DNA from: a virus
Taxonomy: Duplodnaviria > Heunggongvirae > Uroviricota > Caudoviricetes
Strand: one strand, 5' to 3'
IMG/VR virus record: IMGVR_UViG_3300028454_000679
DNA length: 64,000 bases
Below are positions 23,940-39,292 of this stretch, one piece after another (position 1 is the first letter of the stretch; the number at the start of each line of letters is the position of its first letter). The notes beneath the pieces are model-generated. The model saw only the letters and a program-made list of their open reading frames with translations, searched no databases and was not told the DNA's origin. The position numbers and the translations under genes were made by a program.

Positions 23940-24025
23940 CGGTTGGGGTGGGATTCGAACCCACGGACCCTTTCAAGTCGCTGATTTTCAAGACCAGTGC
24001 ACTAAGCCATCTATGCGACCCAACC
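23940..24025 (-). tRNA. tRNA-Ser (anticodon TGA)
   Basis: Manual fold: acceptor GGTTGGG/CCCAACC, D arm GCAT..GTGC, anticodon arm CTGGT-CTTGAAA-ATCAG, 16-nt variable arm, T arm GTGGG-TTCGAAT-CCCAC. 86 nt. Confidence 0.8.
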
Positions 24026-24027
24026 AT

Positions 24028-24053
24028 AGTGTCCACAGAACAGTGGACACTGA
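24028..24053. other. perfect hairpin immediately 5' of tRNA-Ser (minus strand)
   Basis: GTGTCCAC-agaaca-GTGGACAC, a perfect 8-bp stem abutting the tRNA 5' end. Coordinates approximate. Confidence 0.5.
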
Positions 24054-24183
24054 CATATTCAATTTTCATGCACTCTACGGTGCTACTATCTTTTGTTTGG
24101 TTGTGAGGCCGAACAAACGACAGTTACCTGTTAGCTCTACACTGTGTATGCGCAATGCCTAAACCGGCTAAAGTTATGTATTG

Positions 24184-24729
24184 CTAACGAAAGAAGCCGT
24201 AGGATTTGAACCTACTATAACTCTCCACTATAGAGTTAAGCTTCTTGTAAAATTGTATGGCAGTGTACAAGACTGCATCAAGTATACTGCTCACAAGACT
24301 CCTATTCGCCACAGTTGGATTCATGCACAACCACATCTGTAGCTTTCTTGCCACCTCTGACAAAACCTGTGCGGAAAACAACTTTTGGTGTAGTTCTACC
24401 TTTCCCTGTCCAATAAAGCTGATAGTGTCCCGAAACAAAGTGTGGCTTAGGGCTCTTATGAGTACCCGTAGCATCACTTCTCGTGGAGAGATAAAGGAAT
24501 TGTTAACTGTTCCGTGAGACAACTCAAATACACCATTAATTTTGCATTTATTGTCCAAACTTATCACAAAAACTTTTTCTTCTGGTAAATCTTGTACATG
24601 GAACACATTATTCATTATCTCTGCAATTTTCTTCGGTGAATCTGCCAAATTGGAATCCATACAGCTTCTCTCTTTTACAAGGTAAGGAGCTCTCTCTTCG
24701 TTTAGCAGTACACTATATACTGTGATCAT
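24184..24729 (-). CDS. hypothetical protein (weak RadC/JAB-like resemblance, no HNHPSG motif)
   Basis: 181-aa ORF. The last ~18 codons overlap tRNA-like element A, so the true stop or extent is uncertain. Confidence 0.3.
   Translation of the reverse strand: MITVYSVLLNEERAPYLVKERSCMDSNLADSPKKIAEIMNNVFHVQDLPEEKVFVISLDNKCKINGVFELSHGTVNNSFISPREVMLRVLIRALSHTLFRDTISFIGQGKVELHQKLFSAQVLSEVARKLQMWLCMNPTVANRSLVSSILDAVLYTAIQFYKKLNSIVESYSRFKSYGFFR
24191..24245 (-). ncRNA. tRNA-like element A lacking an anticodon arm (55 nt)
   Basis: Manual fold of the reverse complement: acceptor AGAAGCT/GGCTTCT (7 bp, one GU pair), D arm ACTC-TATAGTGGA-GAGT, a 4-nt linker, T arm GTAGG-TTCAAAT-CCTAC, discriminator T. 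No anticodon stem-loop is present. Confidence 0.35.
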
Positions 24730-24825
24730 CTTTTCCCTCCTTTTTGAGGTTCCCGTAAGAGAACCTCATGTGTTCACCTTCGGGGTTGAATGAGTTTCCC
24801 TTTCGTTGACAAAATCACATTTCAG

Positions 24826-25362
24826 TTACTCCCATTTTTCTATATCATTATTCTTTGCAGCTTTTCTGGTCGTTTTCTTCATGCTTGTTTTTAAAGCAGC
24901 TTTAGGTGAAGTAGTGGCTTCTGTTAGTTCACTTGCTCCCTCTTCGTCCTGTCCTCCTTCGCCACCTATTTGTCTGCTTATTTTTTGAAACATCTCCTGC
25001 TCATCCTTTACTTCATCCATAAGCTCCGGATGTGCTTCAAGGAAAGCCTGTCTTTTTTCAAAAGTATTCACCATCTCCTGTGACATCAGCTGATACTGAT
25101 GACGAACCACGTTGCAGATTTTGCAAGGTTCTGCTCCCTGCTCCATTCTGTCATTTACGCATATAGACTGCCTTGGACAGTCCGTCTGCCTTCTGTTGTA
25201 TCTGATGGTAACAATATCTGAATTGATAGGGCTGTCTATTTCTGTGACTGCAACTTCAGGAATAACATATGTTTTATTCCCGCAATCGTTACAGATAATA
25301 AGCATAGCTCCTTCTGAATGTAGATTTTCGCCTCCGCATTTTTGACATCTGATTTTCGTCAT
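24826..25362 (-). CDS. zinc-ribbon protein, paralog of 40623..41069
   Basis: MTKIRCQKCGGENLHSEGAMLIICNDCGNKTYVIPE has CxxC...CxxC, followed by EPCKICNVV. About 55% identical to the second copy 15 kb away. Confidence 0.45.
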   Translation of the reverse strand: MTKIRCQKCGGENLHSEGAMLIICNDCGNKTYVIPEVAVTEIDSPINSDIVTIRYNRRQTDCPRQSICVNDRMEQGAEPCKICNVVRHQYQLMSQEMVNTFEKRQAFLEAHPELMDEVKDEQEMFQKISRQIGGEGGQDEEGASELTEATTSPKAALKTSMKKTTRKAAKNNDIEKWE

Positions 25363-25444
25363 ATGTTCCTCCTCCTATACTTAGTTCTTGCCTTAAGCAG
25401 CTCTAGTAATCTTGTTTCTCTAAACAGCAATATTCTTCATCACC

Positions 25445-25666
25445 TCACATTAAAAATTGCTTTATCATGGATTGAACATCGTCCTTATCCAATCCATACT
25501 TTTCTGCGGTCTCCTCAAGCCATTTATTAAAGTCTTCAGCTATGTGTATTAACTCTTCTCTTGTCATTACCCACTCCTCACCTTTCCTGTACTTGTCAAT
25601 AACTTTGCACACCCTTTCTATAATCTCAGCTGTGTGGTCGTGTTGATCGCCATAATCAAAGTCCAT
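25445..25666 (-). CDS. hypothetical protein
   Basis: 73-aa acidic ORF. Confidence 0.3.
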   Translation of the reverse strand: MDFDYGDQHDHTAEIIERVCKVIDKYRKGEEWVMTREELIHIAEDFNKWLEETAEKYGLDKDDVQSMIKQFLM

Positions 25667-25784
25667 AAACTTAATCTCGGCTTTTATCCTGTCAAGCGTT
25701 TTTGCTTATGACTGCACAAACACTTCTTTTGTCTCTAAACTGGGGGTATACTACTCCATTTTCCCAAGTTTCAGTATTTAGCAC

Positions 25785-25820
25785 AAAAGGGGTAAGTACA
25801 ACATACTTACCCCCTTTAAA
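25785..25820. terminator. bidirectional intrinsic terminator
   Basis: AAAA-GGGGTAAGTA-caaca-TACTTACCCC-TTTAAAA: a 10-bp perfect stem. Confidence 0.55.
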
Positions 25821-26616
25821 ATGCCTAAATACCAAATGTCTAAACCTCTGCCACACTCAAACTTCATAGTGAATCCTCCTCTAGTTCTTCAGAGGTGTCA
25901 TTTGACACCTCTGACTGAAATCAGATTCTTGCACTTTTATCAGTTACTACCTGCATGGTCACTGTGGTCAACATTGTAATATAACACGAAGATAACCTTA
26001 AGCCAAACCTATGTAAACTTCGCCTTCCTGTAATCGTTTTGCTCTTCCGAAACAGGTTTCATGGGTTTTTATACAGACCAGAGCAATTAGGTATCTATAA
26101 AGCTGTTAGGCTTCCCACTTTTTACTTTTCTAATTCTTGCCTTGAAACGCCCCAGTCCGCCCAGCAGACACCCTGAATTTCGCACTCCGGCAAGCGAATC
26201 ATCGTACTCTCCTACTTGTTCACCTTTCCTTTTCGGCTTTCTTTGAATGATTCAGTTTTTTAAAAGGCTTATAGGTGCTTTAAGGTGAAATTAAAACACA
26301 ATGCTTTCTTTCGGGACGATAGTCACACAACTAATGCTTTCTTTTCTTTTTTGTAGCTTTTGAACGCTTTATGCCTTCGTTATGCTTGGTGGTGACTAAA
26401 TGTCTGTTCCTATTCATTAAAACACCTCCTAAACTAATAAGTTTATTAAAACAAAACCAACTAATAGGGATACACCCACAAAGCAAAGTGGCGATTGTGC
26501 ACACTTCTTGTACTCTGTTATACAATGTTGTTTCCCTTCACTAAGTCCTGTCAACACCATGTTTCCTCCTTGCAAACGTATTTCCTGTAGAGGGCAATAC
26601 CGTAGCATTAGTGAGT

Positions 26617-27387
26617 CTACTTCTCAACCCAGTATGCTGATTGCTCCGCAACTGCCATATCAATTAACCAATAATCATCAGACTCTTCGTCGTACATTAC
26701 GTCTATTGACCATTTCCCAGTCATTTCCACGTTTTTCGTGGCATTTCCTACCATTTCTGCCACTTGCTCTTTGTGCTTCTCGTAGAATTCTTCGATTTTC
26801 GGATATACAGTGTTATATACAATCTTATCTGTGGCGTTTTTACTAATAGCGTCCTGGCAGTATTCTTTATCCCAATAATTTACTGTGTACAGCACCTTTC
26901 CTTCATCAAAATCGTAAAACACTCTGAATTCCGGGCGCAAAGGCATACCATTGTAGATACACGGGATATTATCTTGGATATACTTCCATGACCCAACAAA
27001 TTCTCTCAATGCAACTTCCGAAATTCCACCGGCTCCAAGATACAAACTGGTGTATCCAATCTCAATTAGATGCAACGCAATTTCTTCTGCGCTTGCACGA
27101 CATTTGCAACTTTCGCCAAAATTGAACTTGTTGGAAAATGTACCGTTTTTCATAAAAACAAAAAACATGTTGTTTTCTTTTAGTACCGGCATAATCTTAT
27201 CCATCACAAAATGATAGATAATATTGTAATTGTCGACTCTGTTATCCATAAAAAGAGCCTTCATCACTTCTTCGCCCGTTGGAACAATAATCGTCTTCGG
27301 CACTCTCATACCGCAGTTTTCAATCTTGGAAAACCAACTCGAAATATTATTTGGATTTTGGGCGATATATTTAAACATTTTTAACAT
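26617..27387 (-). CDS. hypothetical protein, possible ATP-grasp-like fold
   Basis: 256 aa. The C-terminal WSIDVMYDEESDDYWLIDMAVAEQS resembles the ATP-grasp Mg-binding region. This is weak. Confidence 0.3.
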   Translation of the reverse strand: MLKMFKYIAQNPNNISSWFSKIENCGMRVPKTIIVPTGEEVMKALFMDNRVDNYNIIYHFVMDKIMPVLKENNMFFVFMKNGTFSNKFNFGESCKCRASAEEIALHLIEIGYTSLYLGAGGISEVALREFVGSWKYIQDNIPCIYNGMPLRPEFRVFYDFDEGKVLYTVNYWDKEYCQDAISKNATDKIVYNTVYPKIEEFYEKHKEQVAEMVGNATKNVEMTGKWSIDVMYDEESDDYWLIDMAVAEQSAYWVEK

Positions 27388-27478
27388 AACTTATTACTTC
27401 CTCTTCAGATTTTTAAATGATACAGTTTTCGGAAAATTTGCCCATAAAGGGAGCAATGACTCACACCATCTTGGGTGC

Positions 27479-28015
27479 TTAATTCTTATCTTGAAATGCC
27501 TCTAAATCCTTTTCAGAAACCTTGCCACCTTTTGGATTGTTGTATTTACCATACTGATTACAGGTGGTACAAGTCTTATTATCTTTGTATCGTTTTATAT
27601 CTGAAACTGCCGCAAGTATAATAGGTATGCTATTTAAAGCTAGTCCTATTATGAACGATACCAAAAGCATCATAGTCAAAACTCTCATAAAAGTATTGCT
27701 AGCTGGCTCATGCTCGATATCATACATCGTTATTGTATCTTCGTATGTTTCATAGCCATATTTCCCGTCTTTAAATTCTTTCAATAGTTGCTTCGTGGGT
27801 TTTACTTGCTCTCCATTTAATTCCCACTTGTATTTTTGTGCATTTTTAATACGATAGCTTTTCATACTCTCTATTGTATTATCCAACCCCTTGATAGAAT
27901 TCCTTGAAACCATTGGTAGCACTACAATAAGCACTGTACTCAGTATCAGAAGCGCTGTCCATAATTTTGGGTGTTCTTCCACACTCTTTGCTAATGAGTG
28001 ATTCTTTTCTTTCAT
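27479..28015 (-). CDS. membrane protein, hypothetical
   Basis: Three predicted TM segments and a C-terminal CTTC motif. Confidence 0.3.
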   Translation of the reverse strand: MKEKNHSLAKSVEEHPKLWTALLILSTVLIVVLPMVSRNSIKGLDNTIESMKSYRIKNAQKYKWELNGEQVKPTKQLLKEFKDGKYGYETYEDTITMYDIEHEPASNTFMRVLTMMLLVSFIIGLALNSIPIILAAVSDIKRYKDNKTCTTCNQYGKYNNPKGGKVSEKDLEAFQDKN

Positions 28016-28032
28016 AATACTCTCCTTTAATT

Positions 28033-28614
28033 CTAATAGGTGAATGCATTTTCAACTAATTCGAGCACTCGCTCTAATTCATGCGAATCATGCGGTACTA
28101 CTGGTTGAAGATAGTTCATGATGCTGTGCATCAACTGCTCATACTCAAACTCTCCCACTTTGTCAAGCAATGTATCTATATCATCTGGTGATGCTGTTAA
28201 CCACCTTTTCCCAGAAACACTTTCTAACTCCGGAAACTTTGTATCAAAAAAGGCATCTTGTACACTATCAGGATTCTCAGACTCAGAGATAATCTGGTAA
28301 TTTGTAAGCCACTCAGGTCTTATCTCTGACAACAGATAATCAGAGTAACCACAATTAAGTTGTTTACTACTACCAAAGAATGATTTATTAATGGAAGTAG
28401 TGTTATCTATTGCTCTGCAGCACTCGTCAGGCACATCCAAGTATAGTAGAACCTGTGGCATTGAAAGATCGAGTACAAATGCACGTTTGCGTGCATTCTC
28501 ATCAAAAGGAATAGTAAAGATCTTATCAAAAAGATCATCCTCTTTCTGCCTATAGGTTTTGCCACCCTCCAATGCTCTCAGAACTTTTAATGGTTGAAAC
28601 GTGCATAATTTCAT
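28033..28614 (-). CDS. hypothetical protein
   Basis: 193-aa ORF. Confidence 0.3.
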   Translation of the reverse strand: MKLCTFQPLKVLRALEGGKTYRQKEDDLFDKIFTIPFDENARKRAFVLDLSMPQVLLYLDVPDECCRAIDNTTSINKSFFGSSKQLNCGYSDYLLSEIRPEWLTNYQIISESENPDSVQDAFFDTKFPELESVSGKRWLTASPDDIDTLLDKVGEFEYEQLMHSIMNYLQPVVPHDSHELERVLELVENAFTY

Positions 28615-28617
28615 ACA

Positions 28618-28863
28618 TTACCTCCTTGCGTAATACTCCTTTAATTCTATTTTGACCTTAGAGTCTTCGCGCATTCGTTTTACAGTTGGTAAACCATACT
28701 TTCTGCCAAACTTGCACAGACCACACCCACAGTAAATCTTACCCTTCGAGTACTTCCCATCAGTACCCCTGTACCAGTCAAAACCATAAACTGAGCATGA
28801 GATATGTTTCTTACGTTGTATAACTTTTGCACGCTGATATCTAAAGTACGCTCTATCTCTCAT
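28618..28863 (-). CDS. hypothetical basic Cys-containing small protein
   Basis: 81 aa, with CSVYG....CGCGLC. Confidence 0.3.
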   Translation of the reverse strand: MRDRAYFRYQRAKVIQRKKHISCSVYGFDWYRGTDGKYSKGKIYCGCGLCKFGRKYGLPTVKRMREDSKVKIELKEYYARR

Positions 28864-29114
28864 AGGCCCTCCTTATAACTAGTTTTAATGGTTTGGTTTG
28901 TGTTACTATTATTGCGAGCAATTTCCATTTCCCAATCCAAGTATCTCTGAAATGTAGTATCAGTAGGATTGCGTTGTTGAATAGTCAGTTCATTTGAGGT
29001 ATTACTATTTTGTAACACCTCAGACTCCTGAATTTGTACCTTACGGTTATGTCTAAGTATAGCTGTCTCTTGATTCATAAACCAGGCAGCTTTTAATTCA
29101 AGAACATTCATCAC
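28860..29114 (-). CDS. hypothetical protein
   Basis: 84-aa ORF. Confidence 0.3.
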   Translation of the reverse strand: MMNVLELKAAWFMNQETAILRHNRKVQIQESEVLQNSNTSNELTIQQRNPTDTTFQRYLDWEMEIARNNSNTNQTIKTSYKEGL

Positions 29115-29314: not shown

Positions 29315-29388
29315 TGGACCCCCTGAGACTCGAACTCAGGACCGACCGGTTATGAGCCGGTTGCTCTAACCAACTGAGCTAGAGGTCC
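29315..29388 (-). tRNA. tRNA-Met (anticodon CAT; elongator-type or tRNA-Ile lysidine type)
   Basis: Manual fold: acceptor GGACCTC/GGGGTCC (G1-C72), D arm GCTC-AGTTGGTTA-GAGC, anticodon arm ACCGG-CTCATAA-CCGGT, T arm CTGAG-TTCGAGT-CTCAG. Confidence 0.85.
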
Positions 29389-29572
29389 AAACTGTGGGCA
29401 AACCCTACAGTTTCTTATCCTTTGGGCGTTTCCGCTTCTTAAGGATAAATGCACCTGCGATAGGAGTTGCACCTAAAGCAAGGGCAGCTGCTGTACGTTG
29501 ATTATGTGACACAAAGTTCATCATAGTCTTAATCGTATCAGTTCTCTTCATAAAATCACTTCCTTTCCAAGT

Positions 29573-29680: not shown

Positions 29681-29883
29681 ACCCCACCGAAGTGGAAAGT
29701 TAGCTACAGCATTAGTGGGTGCAGAAGTAACTGTACTGCACCCAAAACTACGCTGAAAGGATAGCCCACCCACTTTCTAACAATACCTATGAGCTATTCT
29801 CTACCCAACTCAGGTATTCGTGGTTTCCTATAGGTAGAGAGGCTTCTATAAAAACAGAAAACCGGGCAGTACTGACCGCCCTA

Positions 29884-29956
29884 CTGGACTACCGGGATTC
29901 GAATCCGGGGAATGCAGGAGTCAAAGTCCTGTGCCTTACCACTTGGCGATAGCCCA
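29884..29956 (-). tRNA. tRNA-Gln (anticodon TTG), slightly non-canonical
   Basis: Manual fold: acceptor TGGGCTA/TAGTCCA (U1-A72, one GU pair), 3-bp D stem, anticodon arm CAGGA-CTTTGAC-TCCTG, T arm CCGGA-TTCGAAT-CCCGG with an A53/C61 mismatch. Preceded on the minus strand by hairpin GGGGCGG-TTCCA-CCGCCCC (29961-29982) and a T run. Confidence 0.6.
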
Positions 29957-30015
29957 AAAACGGGGCGGTGGAACCGCCCCGTAAAAGAGGGAGAAAAATA
30001 CCCCGTGATAGGGGA

Positions 30016-30067
30016 AGCATCTTCCAGGATTCGAACCTGTCTTGTTAGCCACTCTAACTGAAGATGC
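30016..30067 (-). ncRNA. tRNA-like element B lacking an anticodon arm (52 nt)
   Basis: Manual fold: acceptor GCATCTT/AAGATGC, D arm GTTA-GAGTGGC-TAAC, a 3-nt linker, T arm ACAGG-TTCGAAT-CCTGG, discriminator T. Preceded on the minus strand by hairpin GGGTGG-TTCG-CCACCC (30071-30086). Confidence 0.35.
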
Positions 30068-30413
30068 ATAAGGGTGGCGAACCACCCTCAAGGGAAACGT
30101 TCAATTGGTGCCTCTTAACGAAGCAAGTAATTATATAAGAAGATTTTTCATAACTCAGTATCCAGACTAGGCTATTTAGCAGTCCTCATGCTCCCAAAAC
30201 TCCTCTGAAGATTCATTTGGGTGCATATCATACTCTGCAGCCTCATACTGTAGCTGACGCTCATTTTCCAAACTAGCCTTGAGTTTTAAAAGGCTTCTAT
30301 CCGACTCTTTTCGTAAATCTTCATGACTGTACTCTATATCACCAAACTCTTAGGAGAGATGAACCACTTCGCTAATAAGTCTGTTTCTCTCAGATTCTTT
30401 CATTTTGCTCAAA

Positions 30414-33375: not shown

Positions 33376-33419
33376 GACCTCCTAATACTTTAAATCTGAT
33401 AGCTTATGCTATAGAAAAA

Positions 33420-34214
33420 CTAATTGAATACACAGCTGGTCATACTGAACACACGTTGGAATGCCTCCCAGTTCTCATCATGTATACCAGGCTTAATAGC
33501 GTAAACACATGTTATACCACTGTGTCTAAATGTATCCTTAAAAATCTGTGCAACAGTTGTAGGGTCTTGCTTAAACACGCCACACCCAAATGCACCTAGA
33601 ACAGCATACTGTACACCCTCTGTAAGTAAAACGTCCCGAATAAACTCCACACGCTTAACAAGCACCTCTTTGTTCCTACGTACAAGTGCATCCATAGGTT
33701 GCCCTAACTTATCCGCACACTTCGTGATGGCGTAAAAGTTAGGAGATGCACAGGTGAGTACATCAACACGTGCCATTTCTGAACCCCGCTTAAAGGTGAC
33801 ACCTTTAGAGTAAATGCACCTATCCTCATAGAATCCGTAGTGCCTATGAGTTTTATTGTATTCATAAAACTCTGACATATCAGTAAGGTAATGGTACAAA
33901 TTGCTCTCGTGGCACAGCGACTCCTCTTGTGCACAACTTCCCTCCAAAAACTTACCACCAGGGTTAGTAAAGGAAGCAAAGTTAAGTGCACAGACTTTTG
34001 CCCCTGTTGCTGCCGCCTTCATAATACAAGATACAGTGTCCTCGTGAACAACAGTCTGTGACGTGCTGATAAAAGAAGTCTGTCTAGTTGGTGGATACAA
34101 CTTACGGTCGTAGACCACACTAGAGCCTCTCGGCCATTCTTTCGTTTCCTGTATCCACAACTTTGCATGTGCTGCCCGCTCCTTACGGTCTCCCCAATAA
34201 ACTTGATTTGACAT
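33420..34214 (-). CDS. bacterial-type poly(ADP-ribose) glycohydrolase-like macrodomain protein (DUF2263/TIGR02452-like)
   Basis: NPGGKFLEGSCAQEESL matches the bacterial PARG signature GGG-X6-8-QEE. VLGAFGCGVFKQDP matches the macrodomain diphosphate-binding loop. Confidence 0.6.
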   Translation of the reverse strand: MSNQVYWGDRKERAAHAKLWIQETKEWPRGSSVVYDRKLYPPTRQTSFISTSQTVVHEDTVSCIMKAAATGAKVCALNFASFTNPGGKFLEGSCAQEESLCHESNLYHYLTDMSEFYEYNKTHRHYGFYEDRCIYSKGVTFKRGSEMARVDVLTCASPNFYAITKCADKLGQPMDALVRRNKEVLVKRVEFIRDVLLTEGVQYAVLGAFGCGVFKQDPTTVAQIFKDTFRHSGITCVYAIKPGIHDENWEAFQRVFSMTSCVFN

Positions 34215-34229
34215 ACCTTATCCTCCTCC

Positions 34230-34547
34230 TTAAATCCTCTCCTCTGACAGTGTTAATACTGACATACCGTCATTATGCTGAACAAGTCGGGAAACATGAT
34301 GCTTCTCTGCGTAACTGTACAGTGACCTGCAGTATTTGGATTTCTCCCAACCTTTCGTAAACACAACGAGGTCTGAGATCATCACTGCTTTAGTTGCCTC
34401 TTCCAAAGCTTGTGAGCTAAACTTAGACTTCGGTGTTATAAACTCAACATTCCTTGGGTCGTAATCAAACGTACTTAGCTCTTTGATAATTGCATTACAC
34501 TCTTTCTGACGCAGTCCCCATGCAGGATGACTAACAAATACTTTCAT
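34230..34547 (-). CDS. hypothetical protein (Rossmann-like, TIR/nucleoside-deoxyribosyltransferase-like start MKVFVSHP; weak)
   Basis: Start refined to MKVFVSHPAWG, with an AAAGGAGAG RBS. Confidence 0.3.
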   Translation of the reverse strand: MKVFVSHPAWGLRQKECNAIIKELSTFDYDPRNVEFITPKSKFSSQALEEATKAVMISDLVVFTKGWEKSKYCRSLYSYAEKHHVSRLVQHNDGMSVLTLSEERI

Positions 34548-34573
34548 AAACTCTCCTTTCTTTGCTTTATGAA

Positions 34574-34642
34574 AAGACACTGCAGGAATTGAACCTGCGC
34601 CACACGACACAGTCGTTGCTCTACCAACTGAGCTAAGTGTCT
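34574..34642 (-). ncRNA. tRNA-like element C with a 3-nt anticodon loop (TGT) instead of a 7-nt loop (69 nt)
   Basis: Manual fold: canonical acceptor AGACACT/AGTGTCT, D arm GCTC-AGTTGGTA-GAGC, T arm GCAGG-TTCAATT-CCTGC. The anticodon arm is ACGAC-TGT-GTCGT, a 5-bp stem with a 3-nt loop. Confidence 0.4.
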
Positions 34643-34648
34643 TAATAC

Positions 34649-34849
34649 CTAAAACACAGATGACTTACGTATCAATGTTGCGTTGATTGAGTCATCGTAC
34701 TTGTCTACTGTTGCATAATCTGGTGTAGCATTTTCAATTCTTGCATGGTCAGCTGCATAAGTAGACGACATACCATCTGTTCGGAAACAGTCGTCCATCC
34801 CAGAAAATCCTTCGAGCTGTCCAAGCTCTCTTACAATATCCTCAGGCAT
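34649..34849 (-). CDS. hypothetical small protein
   Basis: 66-aa ORF. Confidence 0.25.
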   Translation of the reverse strand: MPEDIVRELGQLEGFSGMDDCFRTDGMSSTYAADHARIENATPDYATVDKYDDSINATLIRKSSVF

Positions 34850-34884
34850 CGCTCTGTCCTCCTAATTTTTATAGTAATGCTGTT

Positions 34885-35658
34885 TTAAGGTATTCGACCG
34901 ATTGTATCAACACACACTGCAGTTACAGTAAAGCGTTGGTTGCCACCATAACACGTTGACAAGGTTACCCATTGCTCAAATGGTGTCTCTGGAACCTTAA
35001 CACCTTCTGGAGCTAAGAACTCGTCTCGAAAGTTGTTAAAGTCTACTGAATCCTCGAATTGAGTTTGGTAGAGTTTAGAATTCTTAGTGGTTTCCTCAAA
35101 TTTCACGATTTGAAATCTATAAATTTGAGTATTGGTGAATACCTGAAAAAACTTATGCTTTTTTAGATACCCTTTCTTCTGCTGATAAAACTTTAGTTTG
35201 CCAAACATAGACAAATCCTTCATATTGTGGCCATAAAGGATAGAATGCTTGTCAGTGAAGAATGGGGAATTGGTTGACTCCAGAATAATAGACCCTGAGT
35301 TGTTCTCTGTACCATTGTAAAGCTTGTACAGATACTTTGTATTACTTCTTGAATGTACAACAGGATAACTAATATCAATGTCCTCAAAGAATACCCAACC
35401 AACGACATCTGGATTAGTCTCCTGTAATGATTCAAGGTCCACAGTAATAAGCTTATTCCAGGGGGTGTAAACTTTTGGCTGTTCAGTGGATTCTAAAGCC
35501 CTCTGAGGTGCAACTGGTGTTACAACCTCTTTTACAAGCGTGTCATAAAACTTGGCACTTTCTTGATACTGAACAAACCCTAAAAACACTTTGAACCCTG
35601 TCAACCCTACGAGAATGCCTAAAACGGCGCACAGAAGATAACTTACTGTTTTTCGCAT
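34885..35658 (-). CDS. membrane-anchored hypothetical protein
   Basis: N-terminal TM; 257 aa. Confidence 0.35.
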   Translation of the reverse strand: MRKTVSYLLCAVLGILVGLTGFKVFLGFVQYQESAKFYDTLVKEVVTPVAPQRALESTEQPKVYTPWNKLITVDLESLQETNPDVVGWVFFEDIDISYPVVHSRSNTKYLYKLYNGTENNSGSIILESTNSPFFTDKHSILYGHNMKDLSMFGKLKFYQQKKGYLKKHKFFQVFTNTQIYRFQIVKFEETTKNSKLYQTQFEDSVDFNNFRDEFLAPEGVKVPETPFEQWVTLSTCYGGNQRFTVTAVCVDTIGRIP

Positions 35659-36144
35659 TCCTTATCGACCTTAATTATCTCTCCATTCTTGATTGTAAAT
35701 ACATACCCTTCTGATGCCAATCTCTCAATCTCCTCCATAGGTAACTTGTTAAGATCAGCAAGACCACCTGGTGTATTAAACACTGATGACTTATTCAATG
35801 ACATACTTCTGCCTCCTAAACAAATTTAAAACGCTTGTTAGCTTTCTTTACTTCGTCAACTTTCTCACCATGTGCACGAAGAAAAGAAAACGTTATTACT
35901 CCGACAAGGAGTCCTAAAACTCCTAAAACAATCTTCTTCATTACTAAGCTCCTTAAATTAAGAGAGCAGGGAAATTAGTCTCCCTGCTCTCTACTTATAA
36001 CATTTGATCTCTTTACCGTAGACTTCTCCATACACTGCATAGGATGCGAGTCTGAAACACCCTCCTCACCATACATGCATGCGTTTGTACCGTAGTTATA
36101 GTAGCACCCACTACATTCTTCTCTATCCATTGTAAATACCTCCG

Positions 36145-36831
36145 CTAATTAAAGACACTGGACTTTTTGATATCCTCATACTCCCACTGGCTAATCTTAA
36201 GAAAGGAGCTGTACGCATGATTAAGAGCCTCAACAGGGTCTTCCACTTCTTCAGTTAATAGTGTAGATGCTAAAGTAGCCACACTGTCCATATCATCAAC
36301 CACATACCAGCCAGCATTCTCTAGCCACTGCAACTCCTCTCGCAATTCATGCTCAGACAGTCCAGAATACTTTGAAGCTAATTCCCAGAACTCTGACTCC
36401 TCATGACCCCAGACATCAATAACGACATTATCCATAATACTCGCATCATTGGTGAGCAGAAATTCATTACTCTCATGTACTGCAGAGTAGAGAACAGTTA
36501 CTGAAGGGAATACATGATTGATGGAATCCGCGATGGTCTCCTCCGTACTTGCGTACTTCCACTCTGTGTGAAAGACAACACGATTCTCAGAAACTTCTGG
36601 CATCTTCACAACTTCTCCGGCGCACTTGTATTCCGGTGTAAAACCCTCGCCGTTCCAAGTAGCTACACCACTTCCCAGAGGAAACAGACCAACCCAAGGT
36701 GCTATAAAGTTAATACCATTTGGGGGTGAGATGCTCAACCATTTAGTAATAGTTTGGCACACTTTCGTAGCCTCTGCTTCATCCTCACACAGCAGAGTGT
36801 ATTCTGTAAAACAACTCTCTGACATACCCAT
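36145..36831 (-). CDS. acidic hypothetical protein
   Basis: 228-aa, E/D-rich. Confidence 0.35.
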   Translation of the reverse strand: MGMSESCFTEYTLLCEDEAEATKVCQTITKWLSISPPNGINFIAPWVGLFPLGSGVATWNGEGFTPEYKCAGEVVKMPEVSENRVVFHTEWKYASTEETIADSINHVFPSVTVLYSAVHESNEFLLTNDASIMDNVVIDVWGHEESEFWELASKYSGLSEHELREELQWLENAGWYVVDDMDSVATLASTLLTEEVEDPVEALNHAYSSFLKISQWEYEDIKKSSVFN

Positions 36832-36836
36832 ACCTC

Positions 36837-37346
36837 CTAAAAAATTTCCATAGCTTCAGTAGTGTGTATAGCAAAGATGCCAGCATCAGCAGCTTCCATA
36901 ACCTCAAAGTAAGAATCATCTACAAAGAAAACTTGGTCAAGCGGAACACCCTCACGCTCAGCAATAATCTTCATAACTAAAACTTTCTTTGAACGGCTAT
37001 CCACAGAAATAAGATCACCATGATTCGTAAAGATACCATCGTAACACTCTCTTAGACGATTATACTTTGCATTGTACTCGAAGCTATTTGAGCATTCTGT
37101 CAGACCGTAAATCTTTGAACCTGTGGTATGTAGTCGAGTAAGCAGCCGATGCATAGGTTTTGGAGCTTTACAATGAATGTAAGCATTATTACAGATATTG
37201 TATTTCAACCAGTCCTCATACTCTCTAACTCCAACAATACGTTTACCATTGTCCTTGTCATTGACACCGTTGTTGTTGTACATATGTAAAGACAGTAGAG
37301 TGTTATCCACATCTGCAAAAGCTAATCTAAATTTTTCTAAATTCAC
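36837..37346 (-). CDS. HAD-superfamily phosphatase
   Basis: Motif I FADVDNTL (DxDxT) and motif IV FFVDDS. Confidence 0.6.
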   Translation of the reverse strand: MNLEKFRLAFADVDNTLLSLHMYNNNGVNDKDNGKRIVGVREYEDWLKYNICNNAYIHCKAPKPMHRLLTRLHTTGSKIYGLTECSNSFEYNAKYNRLRECYDGIFTNHGDLISVDSRSKKVLVMKIIAEREGVPLDQVFFVDDSYFEVMEAADAGIFAIHTTEAMEIF

Positions 37347-37360
37347 TTCGATTCTCCTAA

Positions 37361-37876
37361 CTAATTCTTAACAACTCTGAAGTTCTTACCCAGTGCATTA
37401 CGCACACGTTCAACCTCACTCGGGCTAAAATCAATCTCGTCCTGTGCAAAACGTCTTTCTAACTCTTCTAGTTTCGCCTTAGAGTCTCTAGACACATACC
37501 GACTACGTCTAACATTCTCAGGAGCTTCAACAAATACTGCCTCAACATTCTCCGCACCAAAGTGTTCAATAGCAGCTAAAACGCCGTTAATATCTAATAC
37601 ACCTACGTAATCAGCTTGACTAACCTTCTGGCTGCAAGACCCATAGAACCATTCACCCTCTGTAGTGCTATGCTTGCGATACTCAAAGATATCACCAGTC
37701 TCAACACGCTTCAAAAACTCTTTCTCTGAAAGAAACCAGTAATCAACACCATCAACTTCTCCAGGTCTTGGAGGACGTGTTGTGCAAGTAACAAAATTTC
37801 TCCAACCTTTAGCAACATCTTGCTTAGTGAGATAGTCCTTGCCTGAAGCAGATTTACCGAAATAAATTCTAAGCAT
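37361..37876 (-). CDS. gmk: guanylate kinase-like nucleoside monophosphate kinase
   Basis: P-loop GKSASGKD, plus TTRPPRPGEVDGVDYWFLSEKEF (the guanylate kinase signature TTR.PR.GE.dG.dY.F). Confidence 0.7.
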   Translation of the reverse strand: MLRIYFGKSASGKDYLTKQDVAKGWRNFVTCTTRPPRPGEVDGVDYWFLSEKEFLKRVETGDIFEYRKHSTTEGEWFYGSCSQKVSQADYVGVLDINGVLAAIEHFGAENVEAVFVEAPENVRRSRYVSRDSKAKLEELERRFAQDEIDFSPSEVERVRNALGKNFRVVKN

Positions 37877-38205
37877 TAAACACCTCCGAAATTAACTGCT
37901 GTTGAACCAAACTGTGGTTGTGCCTGTGGTGTTGTAAACTGTTCCTCACTATCAACATCACCAAAGTCGTACTCCTCTAAACCCTCATCAGGTGCCGGAA
38001 CAGACTCTTGGGCAGTCTCACTATAGTATGGCTGCGCATTGGTTGTAAGTGATGTCTGGGAAGGAGTGGATTCAATAAAAGCTTCGAGAATACTCTTTCC
38101 TGCTGATGCTGTAAAAGTGACACCACAACCATTACACGTAGCTGCTTCATTACCATTAAAAGTAATTACATGTGACCCACAAAATGGGCAATTTTTAATC
38201 CTCAT
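37876..38205 (-). CDS. zinc-ribbon hypothetical protein
   Basis: CPFCGSHV...CNGCG. Confidence 0.35.
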   Translation of the reverse strand: MRIKNCPFCGSHVITFNGNEAATCNGCGVTFTASAGKSILEAFIESTPSQTSLTTNAQPYYSETAQESVPAPDEGLEEYDFGDVDSEEQFTTPQAQPQFGSTAVNFGGV

Positions 38206-38262
38206 ACTTAATTCCTCCTAAACTGAACTCTAGACTCCTAGAGTTATTAACTACACACTTAA

Positions 38263-38985
38263 CTAGTTAGCAACTCTACACTTGTTCTTCAATGCATATA
38301 ATTGTTTTTGATTCACATACTTATTTACAATATCCTCATCAAACTCTGCTAATGTGCACCCATAGTGAACAGTACCAGATGGACTCTCAGACACACGTAC
38401 AATTTTAGCAACCAGTTTGAAAGTAACCTGCTTGCTTAAAAACTCACCACTCAATTGAAGAGTGTCCGTAAACTGCACACCAACATAATCCCCTTCACTC
38501 AGTAGGCTAGAACTCTTTACAACTTCTAAAAGAATTCCTCTTGTTGATACATTCACAATGGTGCCATCTAAAGTACCCCTATGCTCACCTAGTGAGATAG
38601 TACAATTCCTGTATACTGGCACTCTGTACGCATTCCTTCTGTCAATTCTATGACCACTACCTCTAGCATCATAAATCATAAACGATTCTGTGCCTACAGT
38701 TCGACGGGAAACGGTTACATGATTCCACTTAAACGTATAACCTGAAACAGAGTCATTGGCTACTAAGGTGTACTCTAAATCCTCGGCATCAAATGCAATA
38801 ACTCTCCCAGAGTAACGAAGCAGGTCAGATACAACAAAGTGCTCACCTTCCCTAAGCGTAGGACGAACAACTTCAGCTTCATGCTCCTGCAGTGTCTTTG
38901 TAGTACCCTCTAAGACAGCTACAAGGTTTCCTCTTCTTGCATAAAGCGTAAAATGGGTATTACTGCGTAATTCATCTAGCTCCAT
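38263..38985 (-). CDS. YcgR-like PilZ-domain protein (c-di-GMP receptor)
   Basis: RIDRRNAYRV (RxxxR) and IVNVSTRGILL (D/NxSxxG) in the C-terminal half; the N-terminal beta-rich domain is PilZN-like. Confidence 0.5.
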   Translation of the reverse strand: MELDELRSNTHFTLYARRGNLVAVLEGTTKTLQEHEAEVVRPTLREGEHFVVSDLLRYSGRVIAFDAEDLEYTLVANDSVSGYTFKWNHVTVSRRTVGTESFMIYDARGSGHRIDRRNAYRVPVYRNCTISLGEHRGTLDGTIVNVSTRGILLEVVKSSSLLSEGDYVGVQFTDTLQLSGEFLSKQVTFKLVAKIVRVSESPSGTVHYGCTLAEFDEDIVNKYVNQKQLYALKNKCRVAN

Positions 38986-39231
38986 AAATCACCAACCTAA
39001 AACAATATAGTAATTCTAATAACTGCTACAGTTAGGTGAAAAGCTTAAGGGCAGAATTCCATTACTTACTCTGTCTAGAGTGTTTTTCTTCCCAAAGGAG
39101 TTTTGCCTTATGTAAAGCTTCTTCGCAATCACGAGCGAAAACGACAAACGTCTCACCTTTAATAGCTGTAACATACTTATGTTCAAACACTTTTCCCACC
39201 TCCGTAAATTTTATATGCACAAATGCATTAA

Positions 39232-39292
39232 TACAGCTTACGGGACTTGAACCCATACTCTACACCGTAGTGTGCACTTACACCAAAGCTGT
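39232..39292 (-). ncRNA. tRNA-like element D with 4-bp stem / 3-nt loop (GGT) in place of the anticodon arm (61 nt)
   Basis: Manual fold: acceptor ACAGCTT/AAGCTGT, D arm GTGT-AAGTGC-ACAC, mini-hairpin CTAC-GGT-GTAG, T arm ATGGG-TTCAAGT-CCCGT. Preceded on the minus strand by a terminator hairpin and T12. Confidence 0.35.

What the first reader, a model, noticed from the sequence alone, without database searches (positions are those of the whole stretch)
23940..39292. Four anticodon-loop-deficient tRNA-like genes interspersed with canonical tRNAs, each preceded by a perfect hairpin
Seen in sequence: besides well-formed tRNA-Ser(TGA), tRNA-Met(CAT) and tRNA-Gln(TTG), four minus-strand elements fold with a canonical 7-bp acceptor stem, a D arm (containing AGTGG/AGTTGG) and a T arm (TTCGAAT/TTCAAAT/TTCAATT/TTCAAGT), yet lack a functional anticodon arm. 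A (24191..24245) and B (30016..30067) have only a 3-4 nt linker. C (34574..34642) and D (39232..39292) have a short stem closed by a 3-nt loop whose sequence (TGT, GGT) equals a threonine anticodon. Every one of the seven genes is immediately preceded on the transcribed strand by a perfect 6-9 bp hairpin, in two cases with a T run. Inference: these are not random decay products, because four independent loci share the same architecture. Candidate roles are decoys or competitors for host anticodon nucleases, tRNA-modification enzymes or aminoacyl-tRNA synthetases; processing signals; or tRNA-derived recombination sites. None of these is established.
Basis: partly seen in the sequence, partly recalled or inferred. 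Interest (0 to 1): 0.75.

Follow-up and report, generated by a model that had tools for sequence, protein, structure and literature searches.

The report
Anticodon-less tRNA-like genes in a phage
Four small genes in this giant phage-like genome fold like the top half of a tRNA but cannot read a codon; similar genes occur in many other phages, where they most likely mark the places at which long messenger RNAs are cut and stabilised.

Summary
The core observation is real. Besides tRNA-Ser, tRNA-Met and tRNA-Gln, four minus-strand elements have a perfect 7-bp acceptor stem, a D arm and a T arm, but no usable anticodon arm. A and B have a 2-4 nt linker; C and D have a short stem with a 3-nt loop. 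About 0.07 such hits are expected by chance per window.

The hairpin claim holds for 5 of the 7 genes, not for A or C.

No close relative of this roughly 234-kb genome exists, so orthologues could not be compared. A spacing pattern that excludes a normal anticodon arm nevertheless found the same architecture in more than 120 viral contigs. These show compensatory changes in the acceptor and T stems. A model built only from them finds A-D in the window (E from 5e-13 to 8e-3). Many lie between genes of late operons, next to major capsid, tail or terminase genes, and 32% have a stable hairpin ending 0-8 nt upstream.

Best reading (inferred, confidence about 0.45): they recruit RNase P and RNase Z to cut polycistronic RNA, like plant mitochondrial t-elements or MALAT1-mascRNA. 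Decoy and pseudogene readings remain open. A decoy for anticodon nucleases is unlikely.

The parts
24191..24245 (-). Element A. A 55-nt tRNA-like gene without an anticodon arm: 7-bp acceptor stem, D-type hairpin, 2-4 nt linker, 5-bp T arm with loop UUCAAAU, discriminator U, no CCA.
   Evidence: Sequence. The MFE fold is the three-way junction (-17.8 kcal/mol, z -3.2). Found by the custom scan. The armless model R1 scores 25.9 bits, E 3e-5, full length. Not called by ARAGORN or by Rfam even at E<=10. It lies in the 3' tail of a degenerate RadC-like ORF.
30016..30067 (-). Element B. A 52-nt tRNA-like gene without an anticodon arm: 7-bp acceptor stem, D hairpin with loop AGUGG, AAGA linker, 4-bp T arm with loop UUCGAAU, discriminator U.
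   Evidence: MFE -18.7 kcal/mol, 92% of the ensemble, z -3.2. R1 scores 17.8 bits, E 7.6e-3.
34574..34642 (-). Element C. A 69-nt cloverleaf whose anticodon stem (5 bp) is closed by a 3-nt loop, UGU. It starts 6 nt after the stop codon of the upstream ORF and ends 26 nt before the next start codon.
   Evidence: Rfam RF00005 scores 55.9 bits with 6 model positions of the anticodon loop replaced by 2 nt. Fold. R1 gives E 5e-13. ORF positions.
39232..39292 (-). Element D. A 61-nt tRNA-like gene: 7-bp acceptor stem, 4-bp D stem, a 4-bp stem closed by the 3-nt loop GGU, and a 5-bp T arm with loop UUCAAGU, discriminator A.
   Evidence: The MFE is the cloverleaf but only 12% of the ensemble (z -1.0), so this is the weakest of the four. 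R1 scores 20.4 bits, E 1.2e-3.
23940..24025 (-). Canonical tRNA-Ser(UGA), with no CCA encoded.
   Evidence: ARAGORN; Rfam 51.8 bits.
29315..29388 (-). Canonical tRNA-Met(CAU), with no CCA encoded.
   Evidence: ARAGORN; Rfam 67.6 bits.
29884..29956 (-). Canonical tRNA-Gln(UUG), with no CCA encoded.
   Evidence: ARAGORN; Rfam 53.6 bits.
24028..24051 (-). Perfect 9-bp hairpin ending 2 nt upstream of tRNA-Ser.
   Evidence: The upstream 36-nt fold is -15.6 kcal/mol, in the top 0.5% of window background.
29389..29413 (-). 10-bp hairpin with one bulge, directly abutting the 5' end of tRNA-Met.
   Evidence: (top 2.4%).
29960..29982 (-). 9-bp G+C-rich hairpin followed by UUU, directly upstream of tRNA-Gln.
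   Evidence: suhB-like alignment; -19.9 kcal/mol, top 0.2%.
30069..30090 (-). 9-bp hairpin with a UUCG loop, ending 1-3 nt upstream of element B and with no U tract.
   Evidence: (-14.4 kcal/mol, top 0.7%).
39293..39310 (-). 7-bp hairpin directly abutting the 5' end of element D.
   Evidence: (top 3.8%).
39320..39349 (-). Intrinsic-terminator-like hairpin (8 bp) followed by a run of 12 T, 28 nt upstream of element D.
   Evidence: Terminator scan.
29864..29881 (-). Terminator-like hairpin just downstream of tRNA-Gln.
34649..34849 (-). 66-aa ORF whose stop codon lies 6 nt upstream of element C.
   Evidence: called gene L001 7896-8096. No family hit.
34230..34547 (-). 105-aa ORF with an AAAGGAG ribosome-binding site, starting 26 nt downstream of element C.
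   Evidence: No family hit.

Best explanation
A-D are genuine tRNA-derived genes that cannot decode. They keep the parts of a tRNA that the maturation machinery reads: the acceptor stem, the T arm, and a D arm that can form the elbow. The anticodon loop is lost or crippled.

They belong to a widespread and essentially uncharacterised class found mainly in phage genomes.

Proposed mechanism (inferred, not shown):
1. The elements are co-transcribed with their neighbours on long minus-strand transcripts.
2. Host RNase P cuts at their 5' end.
3. Because none encodes CCA, RNase Z cuts after the discriminator.
4. These cuts divide the polycistronic RNA. Where a stable hairpin ends 0-4 nt upstream (B, D, and the three true tRNAs), the upstream RNA is left with a hairpin-capped 3' end that resists 3' exonucleases.
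5. A 52-69 nt mini-tRNA is released and can receive CCA.

The anticodon arm is dispensable for all of these steps, which would explain why it is the one part that is lost. This works like plant mitochondrial t-elements and like the MALAT1-mascRNA 3'-end module.
For: Shown:
- The structures are real and far above chance.
- All four are on the coding strand. C fills an intercistronic gap, 6 nt after a stop codon and 26 nt before the next start, which leaves no room for its own promoter or terminator.
- All seven genes lack CCA and have U directly after the discriminator.
- Hairpins abut 5 of the 7 genes.

Evidence from the wider class:
- A D-arm-to-T-arm spacing pattern that excludes a normal anticodon arm hit more than 120 viral contigs. 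Of 95 unique sequences, 67 have 7/7 acceptor pairs although the pattern did not require this.
- In an alignment of 10 armless examples, 99% of cells are paired and 9 of 16 pairs change on both sides. No shuffle (0 of 500) reaches the observed value on any of the five measures.
- The diverged homologous loci L122 and L180 keep a 50/51-nt armless element with at least 5 compensatory pair changes.
- Model R1, built without any window sequence, finds C, A, D and B at E 5e-13, 3e-5, 1.2e-3 and 7.6e-3. The next non-tRNA hit has E 0.73.
- With gap 6-16, there are 89 viral contigs against 98 hits in 596 Gb of prokaryote genomes. Only 29 of those 98 are unmasked and acceptor-paired.

Context of the relatives:
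- The L152 family lies 46 nt after the major head gene and 25 nt before a tail gene.
- L327 and L343 lie between the scaffold and major head genes.
- L107 lies between the major-head region and the head-tail adaptor.
- L336 lies after the gene in the major-tail-protein position.
- L381 and L360 lie upstream of the small terminase gene.
- 12-15 bp hairpins without U tracts end 4 nt upstream of the element in L152, L107 and L358.
- 32 of 100 short tRNA-likes have a hairpin of at least 7 bp ending 0-8 nt upstream. The rate is 8-9% at control offsets and 17% for canonical-size tRNAs in the same loci.

Precedents from the literature:
- In Firmicutes, RNase P and then RNase Z process CCA-less precursors (PMC1874595, PMC8549757).
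- RNase P cleaves polycistronic operon mRNAs (PMC11143913).
Against: - No transcript or cleavage data exist for any of these elements. No orthologue of A-D exists beyond identical copies, so selection on these four is argued by analogy only.
- A and C have no notable upstream hairpin.
- A strong terminator lies 28 nt upstream of D, so D would be made only by read-through.
- A true tRNA would serve equally well as a cutting signal, so this model does not by itself explain why the anticodon arm is lost.
- The D arm is retained, with compensatory changes in L122/L180, although minimal RNase P and RNase Z substrates do not need it.
- CCA is encoded in 24 of 70 short relatives, which hints that the released RNA itself matters.
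- A hairpin only 0-4 nt from the cleavage site could hinder binding of the bacterial RNase P protein to the 5' leader (my own knowledge).
- A crude ORF-distance comparison did not separate short elements from canonical tRNAs.
- The background for the hairpin enrichment is mostly coding sequence. The positional control answers this only in part.
Confidence: 0.45

Rival explanations
1. The elements act in trans as decoys or sponges. After processing and CCA addition, the mini-tRNAs accumulate and bind factors that recognise the acceptor end or the elbow rather than the anticodon. Candidates are toxins and defence effectors that modify or cut tRNA 3' ends (nucleotidyltransferase, pyrophosphokinase or acetyltransferase toxins, and Cas12a3-type tail nucleases), or host tRNA-handling enzymes. 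Binding would protect the phage's and host's real tRNAs.
For: - The D arm and the T-loop elbow are retained, and they co-vary in L122/L180.
- CCA is encoded in 24 of 70 short relatives, and only where neighbouring tRNAs also encode it.
- Many elements sit in phage tRNA islands on the same strand as true tRNAs (33 of 33).
- The window has four tRNA-likes to three tRNAs.
- Cas12a3 cleaves truncated tRNA substrates that keep the acceptor stem and CCA (PMC12851939), so acceptor-end targeting immunity does exist.
Against: - No defence or anti-defence gene is linked to the elements.
- No conserved sequence is shared among A-D beyond general tRNA features.
- The acceptor stems differ completely, so the elements cannot mimic one specific tRNA.
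- The placement next to capsid, tail and terminase genes, with an abutting hairpin, is not predicted by this model.
- Nine full-text literature searches on this class (a tenth looked only for RNase Z background) found no such phage decoy.
- A decoy for anticodon nucleases specifically is implausible, because the anticodon loop is absent.
Confidence: 0.22
2. The elements are non-functional remnants: phage tRNA genes disabled by deletions in the anticodon arm and not yet decayed, carried along because they are harmless inside tRNA-rich regions.
For: - All elements are clearly tRNA-derived. C scores 55.9 bits on Rfam tRNA, and armless relatives score 41-53 bits.
- A overlaps a degenerate RadC-like ORF in a region that looks decayed.
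- The four share no specific sequence.
- D folds weakly.
- CCA is retained less often in short elements than in canonical-size tRNAs (24 of 70 against 70 of 98).
- Conservation of A-D themselves cannot be tested.
Against: - Four of seven genes lost exactly the same arm while keeping 7/7 acceptor pairs and 4-5 of 5 T-stem pairs. No other kind of tRNA fragment is seen in the region, even at Rfam E<=10.
- A, B and D have drifted so far from the tRNA consensus that Rfam misses them, yet their helices are intact.
- In relatives the architecture persists through divergence with compensatory changes.
- The spacing in relatives has a sharp mode: 12 nt in 32 of 69 unique viral sequences.
- The elements occupy specific intercistronic sites beside a positioned hairpin.
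Confidence: 0.2
3. The elements are dedicated amino-acid carriers for reactions outside translation. They would be charged by a synthetase that ignores the anticodon, and would donate the amino acid to cell-wall, lipid, peptide or DNA-modifying transferases without entering the ribosome.
For: - The acceptor stem and T arm, which EF-Tu and the transferases read, are intact.
- The window is rich in cell-envelope genes: an L,D-transpeptidase, a sortase, a signal peptidase and a flotillin.
- tRNA-dependent DNA hypermodification by a phage enzyme has been reported (title and abstract of PMC13219725).
Against: - None of A-D has the G3-U70 (Ala) pair, a long variable arm (Ser, Leu) or a G-1 (His) identity element.
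- No aminoacyl-tRNA transferase, synthetase or CCA-adding enzyme was found among the roughly 70 ORFs scanned.
- The four acceptor stems are all different.
Confidence: 0.05

Closest known systems
Plant mitochondrial t-elements (Forner et al. 2007, PMC1920247; described in PMC5499578)
   Same: Both are degenerate tRNA-like structures that keep an acceptor stem and T arm and at least a degenerate D arm; some lack the anticodon arm. Both lie next to protein-coding genes on the same transcript. t-elements act as cis signals for RNase P and/or RNase Z that define mRNA ends.
   Different: t-elements occur in an organelle and are cut by a protein-only RNase P; here the context is a phage and a bacterial host. 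No cleavage has been shown here. The frequent hairpin abutting the 5' end, and the location inside phage tRNA islands, are not features reported for t-elements. There is no sequence homology beyond general tRNA features.
MALAT1/MEN-beta 3'-end module with mascRNA (mascRNA: 58-nt tRNA-like RNA processed from the MALAT1 3' end, bioRxiv 10.64898/2026.01.19.700226; the RNase P cleavage and the protective triple helix are from my own knowledge of Wilusz et al. 2008 and 2012)
   Same: In both, a stabilising RNA structure is followed immediately by a small tRNA-like element with a crippled anticodon arm. A cut at the 5' end of the tRNA-like element would leave a protected 3' end on the upstream RNA and release a mini-tRNA of about 50-70 nt that can receive CCA.
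   Different: MALAT1 is a eukaryotic nuclear lncRNA, whereas these are phage operons. The protective structure there is a triple helix; here it is a simple hairpin. The Rfam mascRNA family gives no hit in the region. The processing is inferred, not shown.
Stable tRNA-like RNAs in the tRNA clusters of phage T5 (RNA1, RNA2, RNA3), and the T4 species 1 and 2 RNAs (from memory)
   Same: These are phage-encoded, sit among true tRNA genes on the same strand, are tRNA-like with a T arm and acceptor stem, and have unknown function. GenBank NC_005859 annotates them as 'tRNA-like stable RNA with unknown functions'. R1 matches the 3' part of T5 RNA2 weakly (19 bits, E 0.0026).
   Different: The T5 RNAs are larger (73-144 nt) and have extra domains in place of the D and anticodon arms. 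They are not the compact three-way junction of 50-60 nt or the triloop cloverleaf seen here. No homology was shown.
'tRNA-OTHER' of Staphylococcus phage JS1 (Twortvirinae, PQ849840) and the same locus in phage 184DA
   Same: This is the closest annotated sequence to element C (81.5% identity over 61 nt). It is a cloverleaf with normal acceptor, D and T arms, but its anticodon stem of 6 bp is closed by a 4-nt loop.
   Different: The host and phage family differ. The loop has 4 nt rather than 3. It is annotated only as an undetermined tRNA, or as a hypothetical protein, and no function is known.
tRNA-like domain of tmRNA
   Same: Both have an acceptor stem, a T arm and a D-loop analogue without an anticodon arm.
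   Different: tmRNA has a G3-U70 alanine identity pair, pseudoknots and a tag reading frame between the two halves. None of these is present here, and ARAGORN finds no tmRNA.

Membership tests
Canonical tRNA (Rfam RF00005) | 7-bp acceptor stem, D arm, and a 5-bp T arm with a T-psi-C-type loop | tested here: met
   All four elements meet this. B has 4 of 5 T-stem pairs.
Canonical tRNA (Rfam RF00005) | 5-bp anticodon stem with a 7-nt loop carrying U33 and an anticodon | tested here: not met
   A and B have no such arm. C and D have 3-nt loops. ARAGORN calls none of the four.
Canonical tRNA (Rfam RF00005) | Score at or above the Rfam gathering threshold (29 bits) | tested here: inconclusive
   C reaches 55.9 bits. 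A, B and D are not reported even at E<=10.
Phage armless or short-loop tRNA-like class (defined here; model R1) | Full-length match to a covariance model built from IMG/VR armless elements, without any window sequence | tested here: met
   C 52.3 bits (E 5e-13), A 25.9 bits (3e-5), D 20.4 bits (1.2e-3), B 17.8 bits (7.6e-3). All align to model positions 1-58. The next non-tRNA hit has E 0.73. E-values are rough because calibration was short.
Phage armless or short-loop tRNA-like class (defined here; model R1) | Same strand as the flanking genes and tRNAs, in an intergenic or intercistronic position | tested here: met
   In the window. In relatives: 33 of 33 are co-oriented with nearby tRNAs, and 16 against 3 are co-oriented with the flanking coding sequence where this is clear.
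t-element-type cis processing signal | Degenerate tRNA that keeps the acceptor stem and T arm but lacks an anticodon arm or a canonical D arm | tested here: met
   The definition is taken from PMC5499578.
t-element-type cis processing signal | mRNA 5' or 3' ends map to the element borders (cleavage by RNase P and/or RNase Z) | not testable with these tools
   No transcript data are available. The positions are compatible: C lies between two ORFs, and relatives flank capsid and tail genes.
MALAT1-mascRNA-type 3'-end module | A protective RNA structure lies immediately upstream of the tRNA-like element | tested here: inconclusive
   Present for B and D and for the three true tRNAs, but absent for A and C. 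In relatives it is present in 32%, against 8-9% at control offsets.
MALAT1-mascRNA-type 3'-end module | Match to the Rfam mascRNA-menRNA family | tested here: not met
   No such hit at E<=10 in 22000-41000.
tmRNA tRNA-like domain | G3-U70 pair, tag reading frame and pseudoknots between the acceptor halves | tested here: not met
   Position 3:70 is A-U in all four elements. ARAGORN finds no tmRNA.
attP or tRNA gene fragment left by integrative elements | Only the 3' part of a tRNA gene is present, next to an integrase | tested here: not met
   Both acceptor strands and the D arm are present. No integrase was found among the scanned ORFs.

The most novel reading that the evidence does not exclude
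Phages of many lineages use anticodon-less mini-tRNAs, often coupled to an abutting hairpin, as portable modules that recruit host RNase P and RNase Z. These modules make protected mRNA 3' ends without stopping transcription. Examples lie next to major capsid and tail genes, and in the accessory and tRNA region of this jumbo phage-like genome. This would be a prokaryotic counterpart of MALAT1-mascRNA and of plant t-elements. The released CCA-tailed mini-tRNAs may have a second life as sponges for defence factors that target tRNA ends.
Probability: 0.35. Interest if true: 0.85.

Novelty: new variant of a known kind. Interest (0 to 1): 0.7.

Why it matters
If the processing model holds, phages would control the amounts of their most abundant proteins with a small, transferable RNA part that borrows the host's tRNA maturation enzymes. 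Such a device is known from plant mitochondria and human nuclei, but has not been recognised as a class in phages or bacteria.

There is a practical consequence for annotation. tRNA finders skip these genes, and where they are annotated it is as 'tRNA-OTHER', as unannotated tRNA-model hits, or even as hypothetical proteins. Phage tRNA counts are therefore off, and a regulatory layer is missed.

If the released RNAs instead act as decoys, they would be a new kind of counter-defence in the current tRNA-centred arms race.

Either way, the class is now defined well enough to be tested directly. A spacing pattern and a covariance model exist, and dozens of loci have known gene context, including relatives in Microbacterium genomes (probably prophages) and the 'tRNA-OTHER' locus of cultured Staphylococcus phages.

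Tried and rejected
Megablast of the region against phage and plasmid collections found only generic tRNA hits. The exact core of C is absent from IMG/VR. The sortase neighbour has no IMG/VR relative. Protein searches with three neighbours (flotillin, the 256-aa phrog_12834 protein, the PARG-like protein) gave at best 86%, 57% and 47% identity, none in the same gene order. All contigs that share the region are 100% identical. The test could therefore not be run.
- **77 IMG/VR loci around relatives of the 256-aa protein (1.45 Mb).** These hold 23 tRNAs and no convincing tRNA-like element, so the elements are not a feature of that protein's neighbourhood.
- **Assembly artefact.** Rejected, because three pipelines give the same sequence. 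The underlying samples may overlap.
- **Reading the single hairpin of A as an anticodon arm (loop AUAGUGG, 'anticodon' AGU) of a tRNA without a D arm.** Rejected. B has no U33 in the equivalent loop, and AGUGG is the usual D-loop motif with G18 and G19.
- **Threonine link of the UGU and GGU loops.** No support.
- **attP or recombination site.** Rejected (see the membership test).
- **tmRNA-like domain.** Rejected.
- **Synthetase identity elements (Ala, Ser, Leu, His).** None found.
- **Search for tRNA-related enzymes in the window.** None found among about 70 ORFs.
- **Base after the discriminator in other phages' CCA-less tRNAs.** My first attempt used unreliable ARAGORN borders. It was redone, and no general U preference appeared in that mixed-host set.
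- **ORF-distance comparison of short against canonical-size elements.** Uninformative.
- **Literature.** Ten full-text searches, nine of them aimed at this class and one at RNase Z background, found no description of it. The library lacks most subscription journals, so prior description cannot be excluded.

Full report
**1. What is in the window.** ARAGORN finds three tRNA genes, all on the minus strand: Ser(tga) 23939-24026, Met(cat) 29314-29389 and Gln(ttg) 29883-29957. At its gathering threshold, Rfam finds the same three plus a fourth full-length tRNA match at 34574-34642. In its alignment, six model positions of the anticodon loop are replaced by two bases.

- A (55 nt) and B (52 nt) are three-way junctions: a 7-bp acceptor stem, one D-type hairpin whose loop carries AGUGG, a linker of 2-4 nt, and a T arm with loop UUCAAAU or UUCGAAU.
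- C (69 nt) and D (61 nt) are cloverleaves in which the 'anticodon' stem is closed by only three bases, UGU and GGU.

The folds of A, B and C are the dominant structures (48-92% of the ensemble, z from -2.5 to -3.2). D is weaker (12%, z -1.0).

**2. Is it more than chance?** I scanned both strands for a T loop TTCRANN with at least 4 stem pairs, followed directly by a 7-nt strand pairing 7/7 with a strand 45-95 nt upstream, plus a D stem. The scan returns only Ser, Met, A, B, C and D. Thirty dinucleotide-preserving shuffles give a mean of 0.07 such hits. Loosening every criterion adds only hits at the shuffle rate. All elements are on the strand that carries almost every gene of the window.

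**3. The hairpins.** I compared the 36 nt upstream of each gene with about 1,700 windows of the same strand. The fold is exceptional for Ser (9 bp, ends 2 nt upstream), Gln (9 bp G+C-rich, then UUU) and B (9 bp with a UUCG loop, ends 1-3 nt upstream). It is good for Met (abutting) and D (7 bp, abutting). It is ordinary for A and C. The hairpin claim therefore holds for five of seven genes. D also has a canonical intrinsic terminator, with a run of 12 T, 28 nt upstream. None of the seven genes encodes CCA, and in all seven the base after the discriminator is U.

**4. What genome is this?** The window matches a metagenomic contig of about 234 kb, and three assembly pipelines give 100% identical sequence over the elements. 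Its flotillin is 86% identical to that of 209-225 kb contigs that carry a T4-type portal, PolA and RecA.

The window itself carries a ParA plus Rep3 replication module. The best Rep match is a Butyrivibrio plasmid at 31% identity. It also carries many host-like envelope and signalling genes. The genome therefore looks like a jumbo phage or phage-plasmid of a Lachnospiraceae host.

No tRNA-handling enzyme was found among the roughly 70 ORFs scanned. Element A lies in the 3' tail of a RadC-like ORF that matches only the first half of the JAB domain, so that ORF is probably degenerate. Element C starts 6 nt after the stop codon of a 66-aa ORF and ends 26 nt before the start of a 105-aa ORF with a good ribosome-binding site. 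This leaves no room for a promoter or terminator of its own, so C must be part of an mRNA.

**5. Relatives of the loci.** I could not find any. DNA searches and three neighbour-protein searches gave nothing closer than 47-57% amino-acid identity in the same neighbourhood.

**6. Relatives of the architecture.** I searched IMG/VR for the commonest bacterial D arm (TAGCTCAGNNGGNAGAGC) followed by GTTCRANTC after only 6-24 nt. A normal tRNA needs 26-27 nt there.

Of 95 unique sequences, 67 have a perfect 7/7 acceptor stem and 80 have at least 6/7 with an intact T stem, although the pattern constrains neither. ARAGORN calls almost none of them. They range from elements with no anticodon arm (spacing 11-14, like A and B), through short stems with loops of 3-5 nt (like C and D), to conserved families with unusual inserts.

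Ten armless examples align with 99% of cells paired. All seven acceptor pairs and two T-stem pairs change on both sides. No shuffle, and no slid register, comes near this. I chose those ten for good acceptor pairing, so the independent figure is the 67 of 95 above.

Two diverged homologous loci, L122 and L180, each carry a 68-nt short-loop element followed by a 50/51-nt armless element. There are at least five compensatory pair changes in the armless element alone, while the flanks barely align. That is direct evidence that the armless form is maintained by selection in at least one lineage.

A covariance model built from the ten IMG/VR sequences was run over the whole window without filters. 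It finds C, A, D and B as full-length matches at E 5e-13, 3e-5, 1.2e-3 and 7.6e-3. The next non-tRNA hit has E 0.73.

**7. Viral or cellular?** With the spacing limited to 6-16 nt, the count is complete. There are 89 viral contigs (69 unique sequences, 49 with 7/7 acceptor pairs, and a sharp mode at 12 nt). There are 98 hits in 596 Gb of prokaryote genomes. Of those 98, 24 contain masked N runs that most likely hide ordinary anticodon arms. Another 45 lack acceptor pairing, most of them a family seen largely in Bacteroidota genomes. Only 29 are comparable to the viral elements. Several of those 29, from Microbacterium, belong to the same family as the viral L107 and are probably in prophages. 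The class is therefore strongly enriched in viruses.

**8. Where the relatives sit.** About 40% of the paired elements (33 of 80) lie within 500 nt of a true tRNA, always on the same strand. Many others are solitary and wedged between genes of late operons. PHROG assignments of the neighbours show the following:
- The L152 family lies 46 nt after the major head gene and 25 nt before a tail gene.
- L327 and L343 lie between the scaffold and major head genes.
- L107 has the order major head, a 137-aa ORF, the element, a 135-aa ORF, then the head-tail adaptor.
- L336 has the order tail terminator, a gene in the major-tail-protein position, the element, a gene in the chaperone position, then the tape measure gene.
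- L381 and L360 lie just upstream of the small terminase gene.

In L152, L107 and L358, a 12-15 bp G+C-rich hairpin without a U tract ends exactly 4 nt before the element. Across 100 unique short elements with no tRNA just upstream, 32% have a hairpin of at least 7 bp ending 0-8 nt upstream. The rate is 8-9% at control offsets of 20-40 nt, and 17% for canonical-size tRNAs in the same loci.

**9. Mechanism.** The parts that are kept are those read by RNase P, RNase Z and the CCA-adding enzyme: the acceptor stem, the T arm and a D arm able to form the elbow. The part that is lost is the one needed only for decoding. In Firmicutes, CCA-less precursors are cut by RNase P and then by RNase Z after the discriminator (PMC1874595, PMC8549757). 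RNase P is also known to cut polycistronic operon mRNAs (PMC11143913).

Because C sits between two cistrons, excising it necessarily cuts the mRNA. Where a hairpin abuts the 5' end, the RNase P cut would leave the upstream RNA with a hairpin-capped 3' end. This is the usual protection against 3' exonucleases, and it is obtained without terminating transcription. Placement beside the genes for the most abundant virion proteins is what one would expect of such a device.

All of this is inference; no RNA data were available. The model has weak points. A and C lack the hairpin. D follows a strong terminator. A true tRNA would do the same job. The D arm is conserved although minimal substrates do not need it. 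A third of relatives encode CCA, which suggests that the released RNA may matter in its own right.

I therefore put the processing model at about 0.45, a trans-acting decoy or sponge at about 0.2, inert remnants at about 0.2, and an amino-acid carrier at about 0.05. That A-D are real tRNA-derived genes that cannot decode I regard as near certain.

**10. Comparison with known systems.** The closest functional analogues are plant mitochondrial t-elements. These are described as degenerated tRNAs with acceptor and T-arm mimics, some lacking the anticodon arm, and acting as cis signals for RNase P and RNase Z (PMC5499578, PMC1920247). The other close analogue is the MALAT1-mascRNA module.

Among phages, T5 has long-annotated 'tRNA-like stable RNAs with unknown functions' inside its tRNA cluster, but they are larger and built differently. 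The closest annotated sequence to C is the 'tRNA-OTHER' of Staphylococcus phage JS1, whose anticodon stem is closed by four bases. In a sister phage the same locus is annotated as a hypothetical protein.

Nine full-text searches aimed at this class found no description of it. The library is incomplete, so this is not proof of novelty.

**11. Verdict.** The core observation is confirmed, and the hairpin detail is partly confirmed. I rate the finding as a new variant of a known kind of element and of considerable interest. The window led to a widespread, testable class of phage RNA elements that current annotation overlooks.

Noticed in passing
window 11168-13902 (+), within a genome whose relatives are L004-L010: A ParA-type ATPase (11168-11893) and a Rep3-family initiator (12754-13902) are the only large plus-strand genes. 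They form a plasmid-type partition and replication module inside a genome of about 234 kb. Its flotillin relatives are 209-225 kb contigs with a T4-type portal, PolA and RecA. This may be a jumbo phage-plasmid of a Lachnospiraceae host.
   Followed up: partly
window 7764-10044, 15254-15991, 19233-20498, 22063-22629, 31218-35658, 37361-38985, 45587-47692: There is an unusual load of host-like signalling and envelope genes: an HD-GYP-type HD_5 protein, a YkuD L,D-transpeptidase, TatC, a trigger-factor-like protein, signal peptidase S26, flotillin, a PARG-like protein, sortase, guanylate kinase, a PilZ protein and a full methyl-accepting chemotaxis protein.
   Followed up: no
window 24184-24729 (-): The RadC-like ORF matches only positions 2-61 of the 121-position JAB domain. 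The rest of the ORF, including the part that overlaps element A, has no match. It is probably a truncated or decayed gene.
   Followed up: partly
IMG/VR loci L103, L106, L117, L121, L128, L141, L155, L163, L164, L166, L174, L197, L201, L210, L212, L213 (for example L155 2852-2920): A large conserved family of 68-69 nt tRNA-likes carries CACCGC(A/G)CC(A/G)GGAGGTATGCG, a Shine-Dalgarno-like AGGAGG, in place of the anticodon arm. At least the two copies examined (L155, L212) have an encoded ACCA end. Three different acceptor stems, each fully compensated, occur in this family (GCAGACG, GGTTTCG, GCAAGCG). It could pair with the 3' end of 16S rRNA.
   Followed up: no
genome loci such as L246, L253, L262, L293, L296, L300, L307 (Larkinella, Spirosoma, Chitinophagaceae): A chromosomal family seen largely in Bacteroidota genomes has a canonical D arm, the motif AACAG plus about 10 nt, and a GCAGG-TTCGAAT-CCTGC T arm, but no acceptor pairing with its immediate flanks. 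It may be a tRNA-like domain of a larger RNA.
   Followed up: no
L218 (phage T5, NC_005859) 7960-8084 (-): T5 RNA2 is annotated as a 'tRNA-like stable RNA with unknown functions'. Its acceptor stem is formed between its 5' end (ATTCTAG) and its 3' end (CTAGGAT). It has a normal T arm and a second internal T-arm-like hairpin. The armless model hits its 3' 51 nt at E 0.0026.
   Followed up: partly
L217 (Vibrio phage pVp-1, JQ340389) 9127-9195 (+): This is an unannotated tRNA-like gene with a 4-bp anticodon stem, a 9-nt loop, G3-U70 and G4-U69 wobble pairs in the acceptor stem, and an encoded CCA. The record annotates no tRNA in the 16-kb stretch fetched, where ARAGORN finds 22.
   Followed up: no
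window, the base after the discriminator of all seven genes (23939, 24190, 29314, 29883, 30015, 34573, 39231): All seven tRNA and tRNA-like genes have U directly after the discriminator and no CCA. This is consistent with a shared RNase Z-type 3' processing signal. No such preference appeared in a mixed-host set of other phage tRNAs.
   Followed up: partly
L004 15741-18494, L007 15743-18064: The related 210-kb phages carry an intein (PT-HINT and Intein_splicing domains) in a gene just upstream of the portal gene, and several NUMOD4/HNH homing endonuclease genes. These are variably present between otherwise collinear genomes.
   Followed up: no
L156 2632-2938 (-): This viral contig encodes a tmRNA, matching both the betaproteobacterial and the permuted Rfam models, next to an array of nine tRNA-model hits. 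One of these is a 64-nt short-loop tRNA-like element.
   Followed up: no
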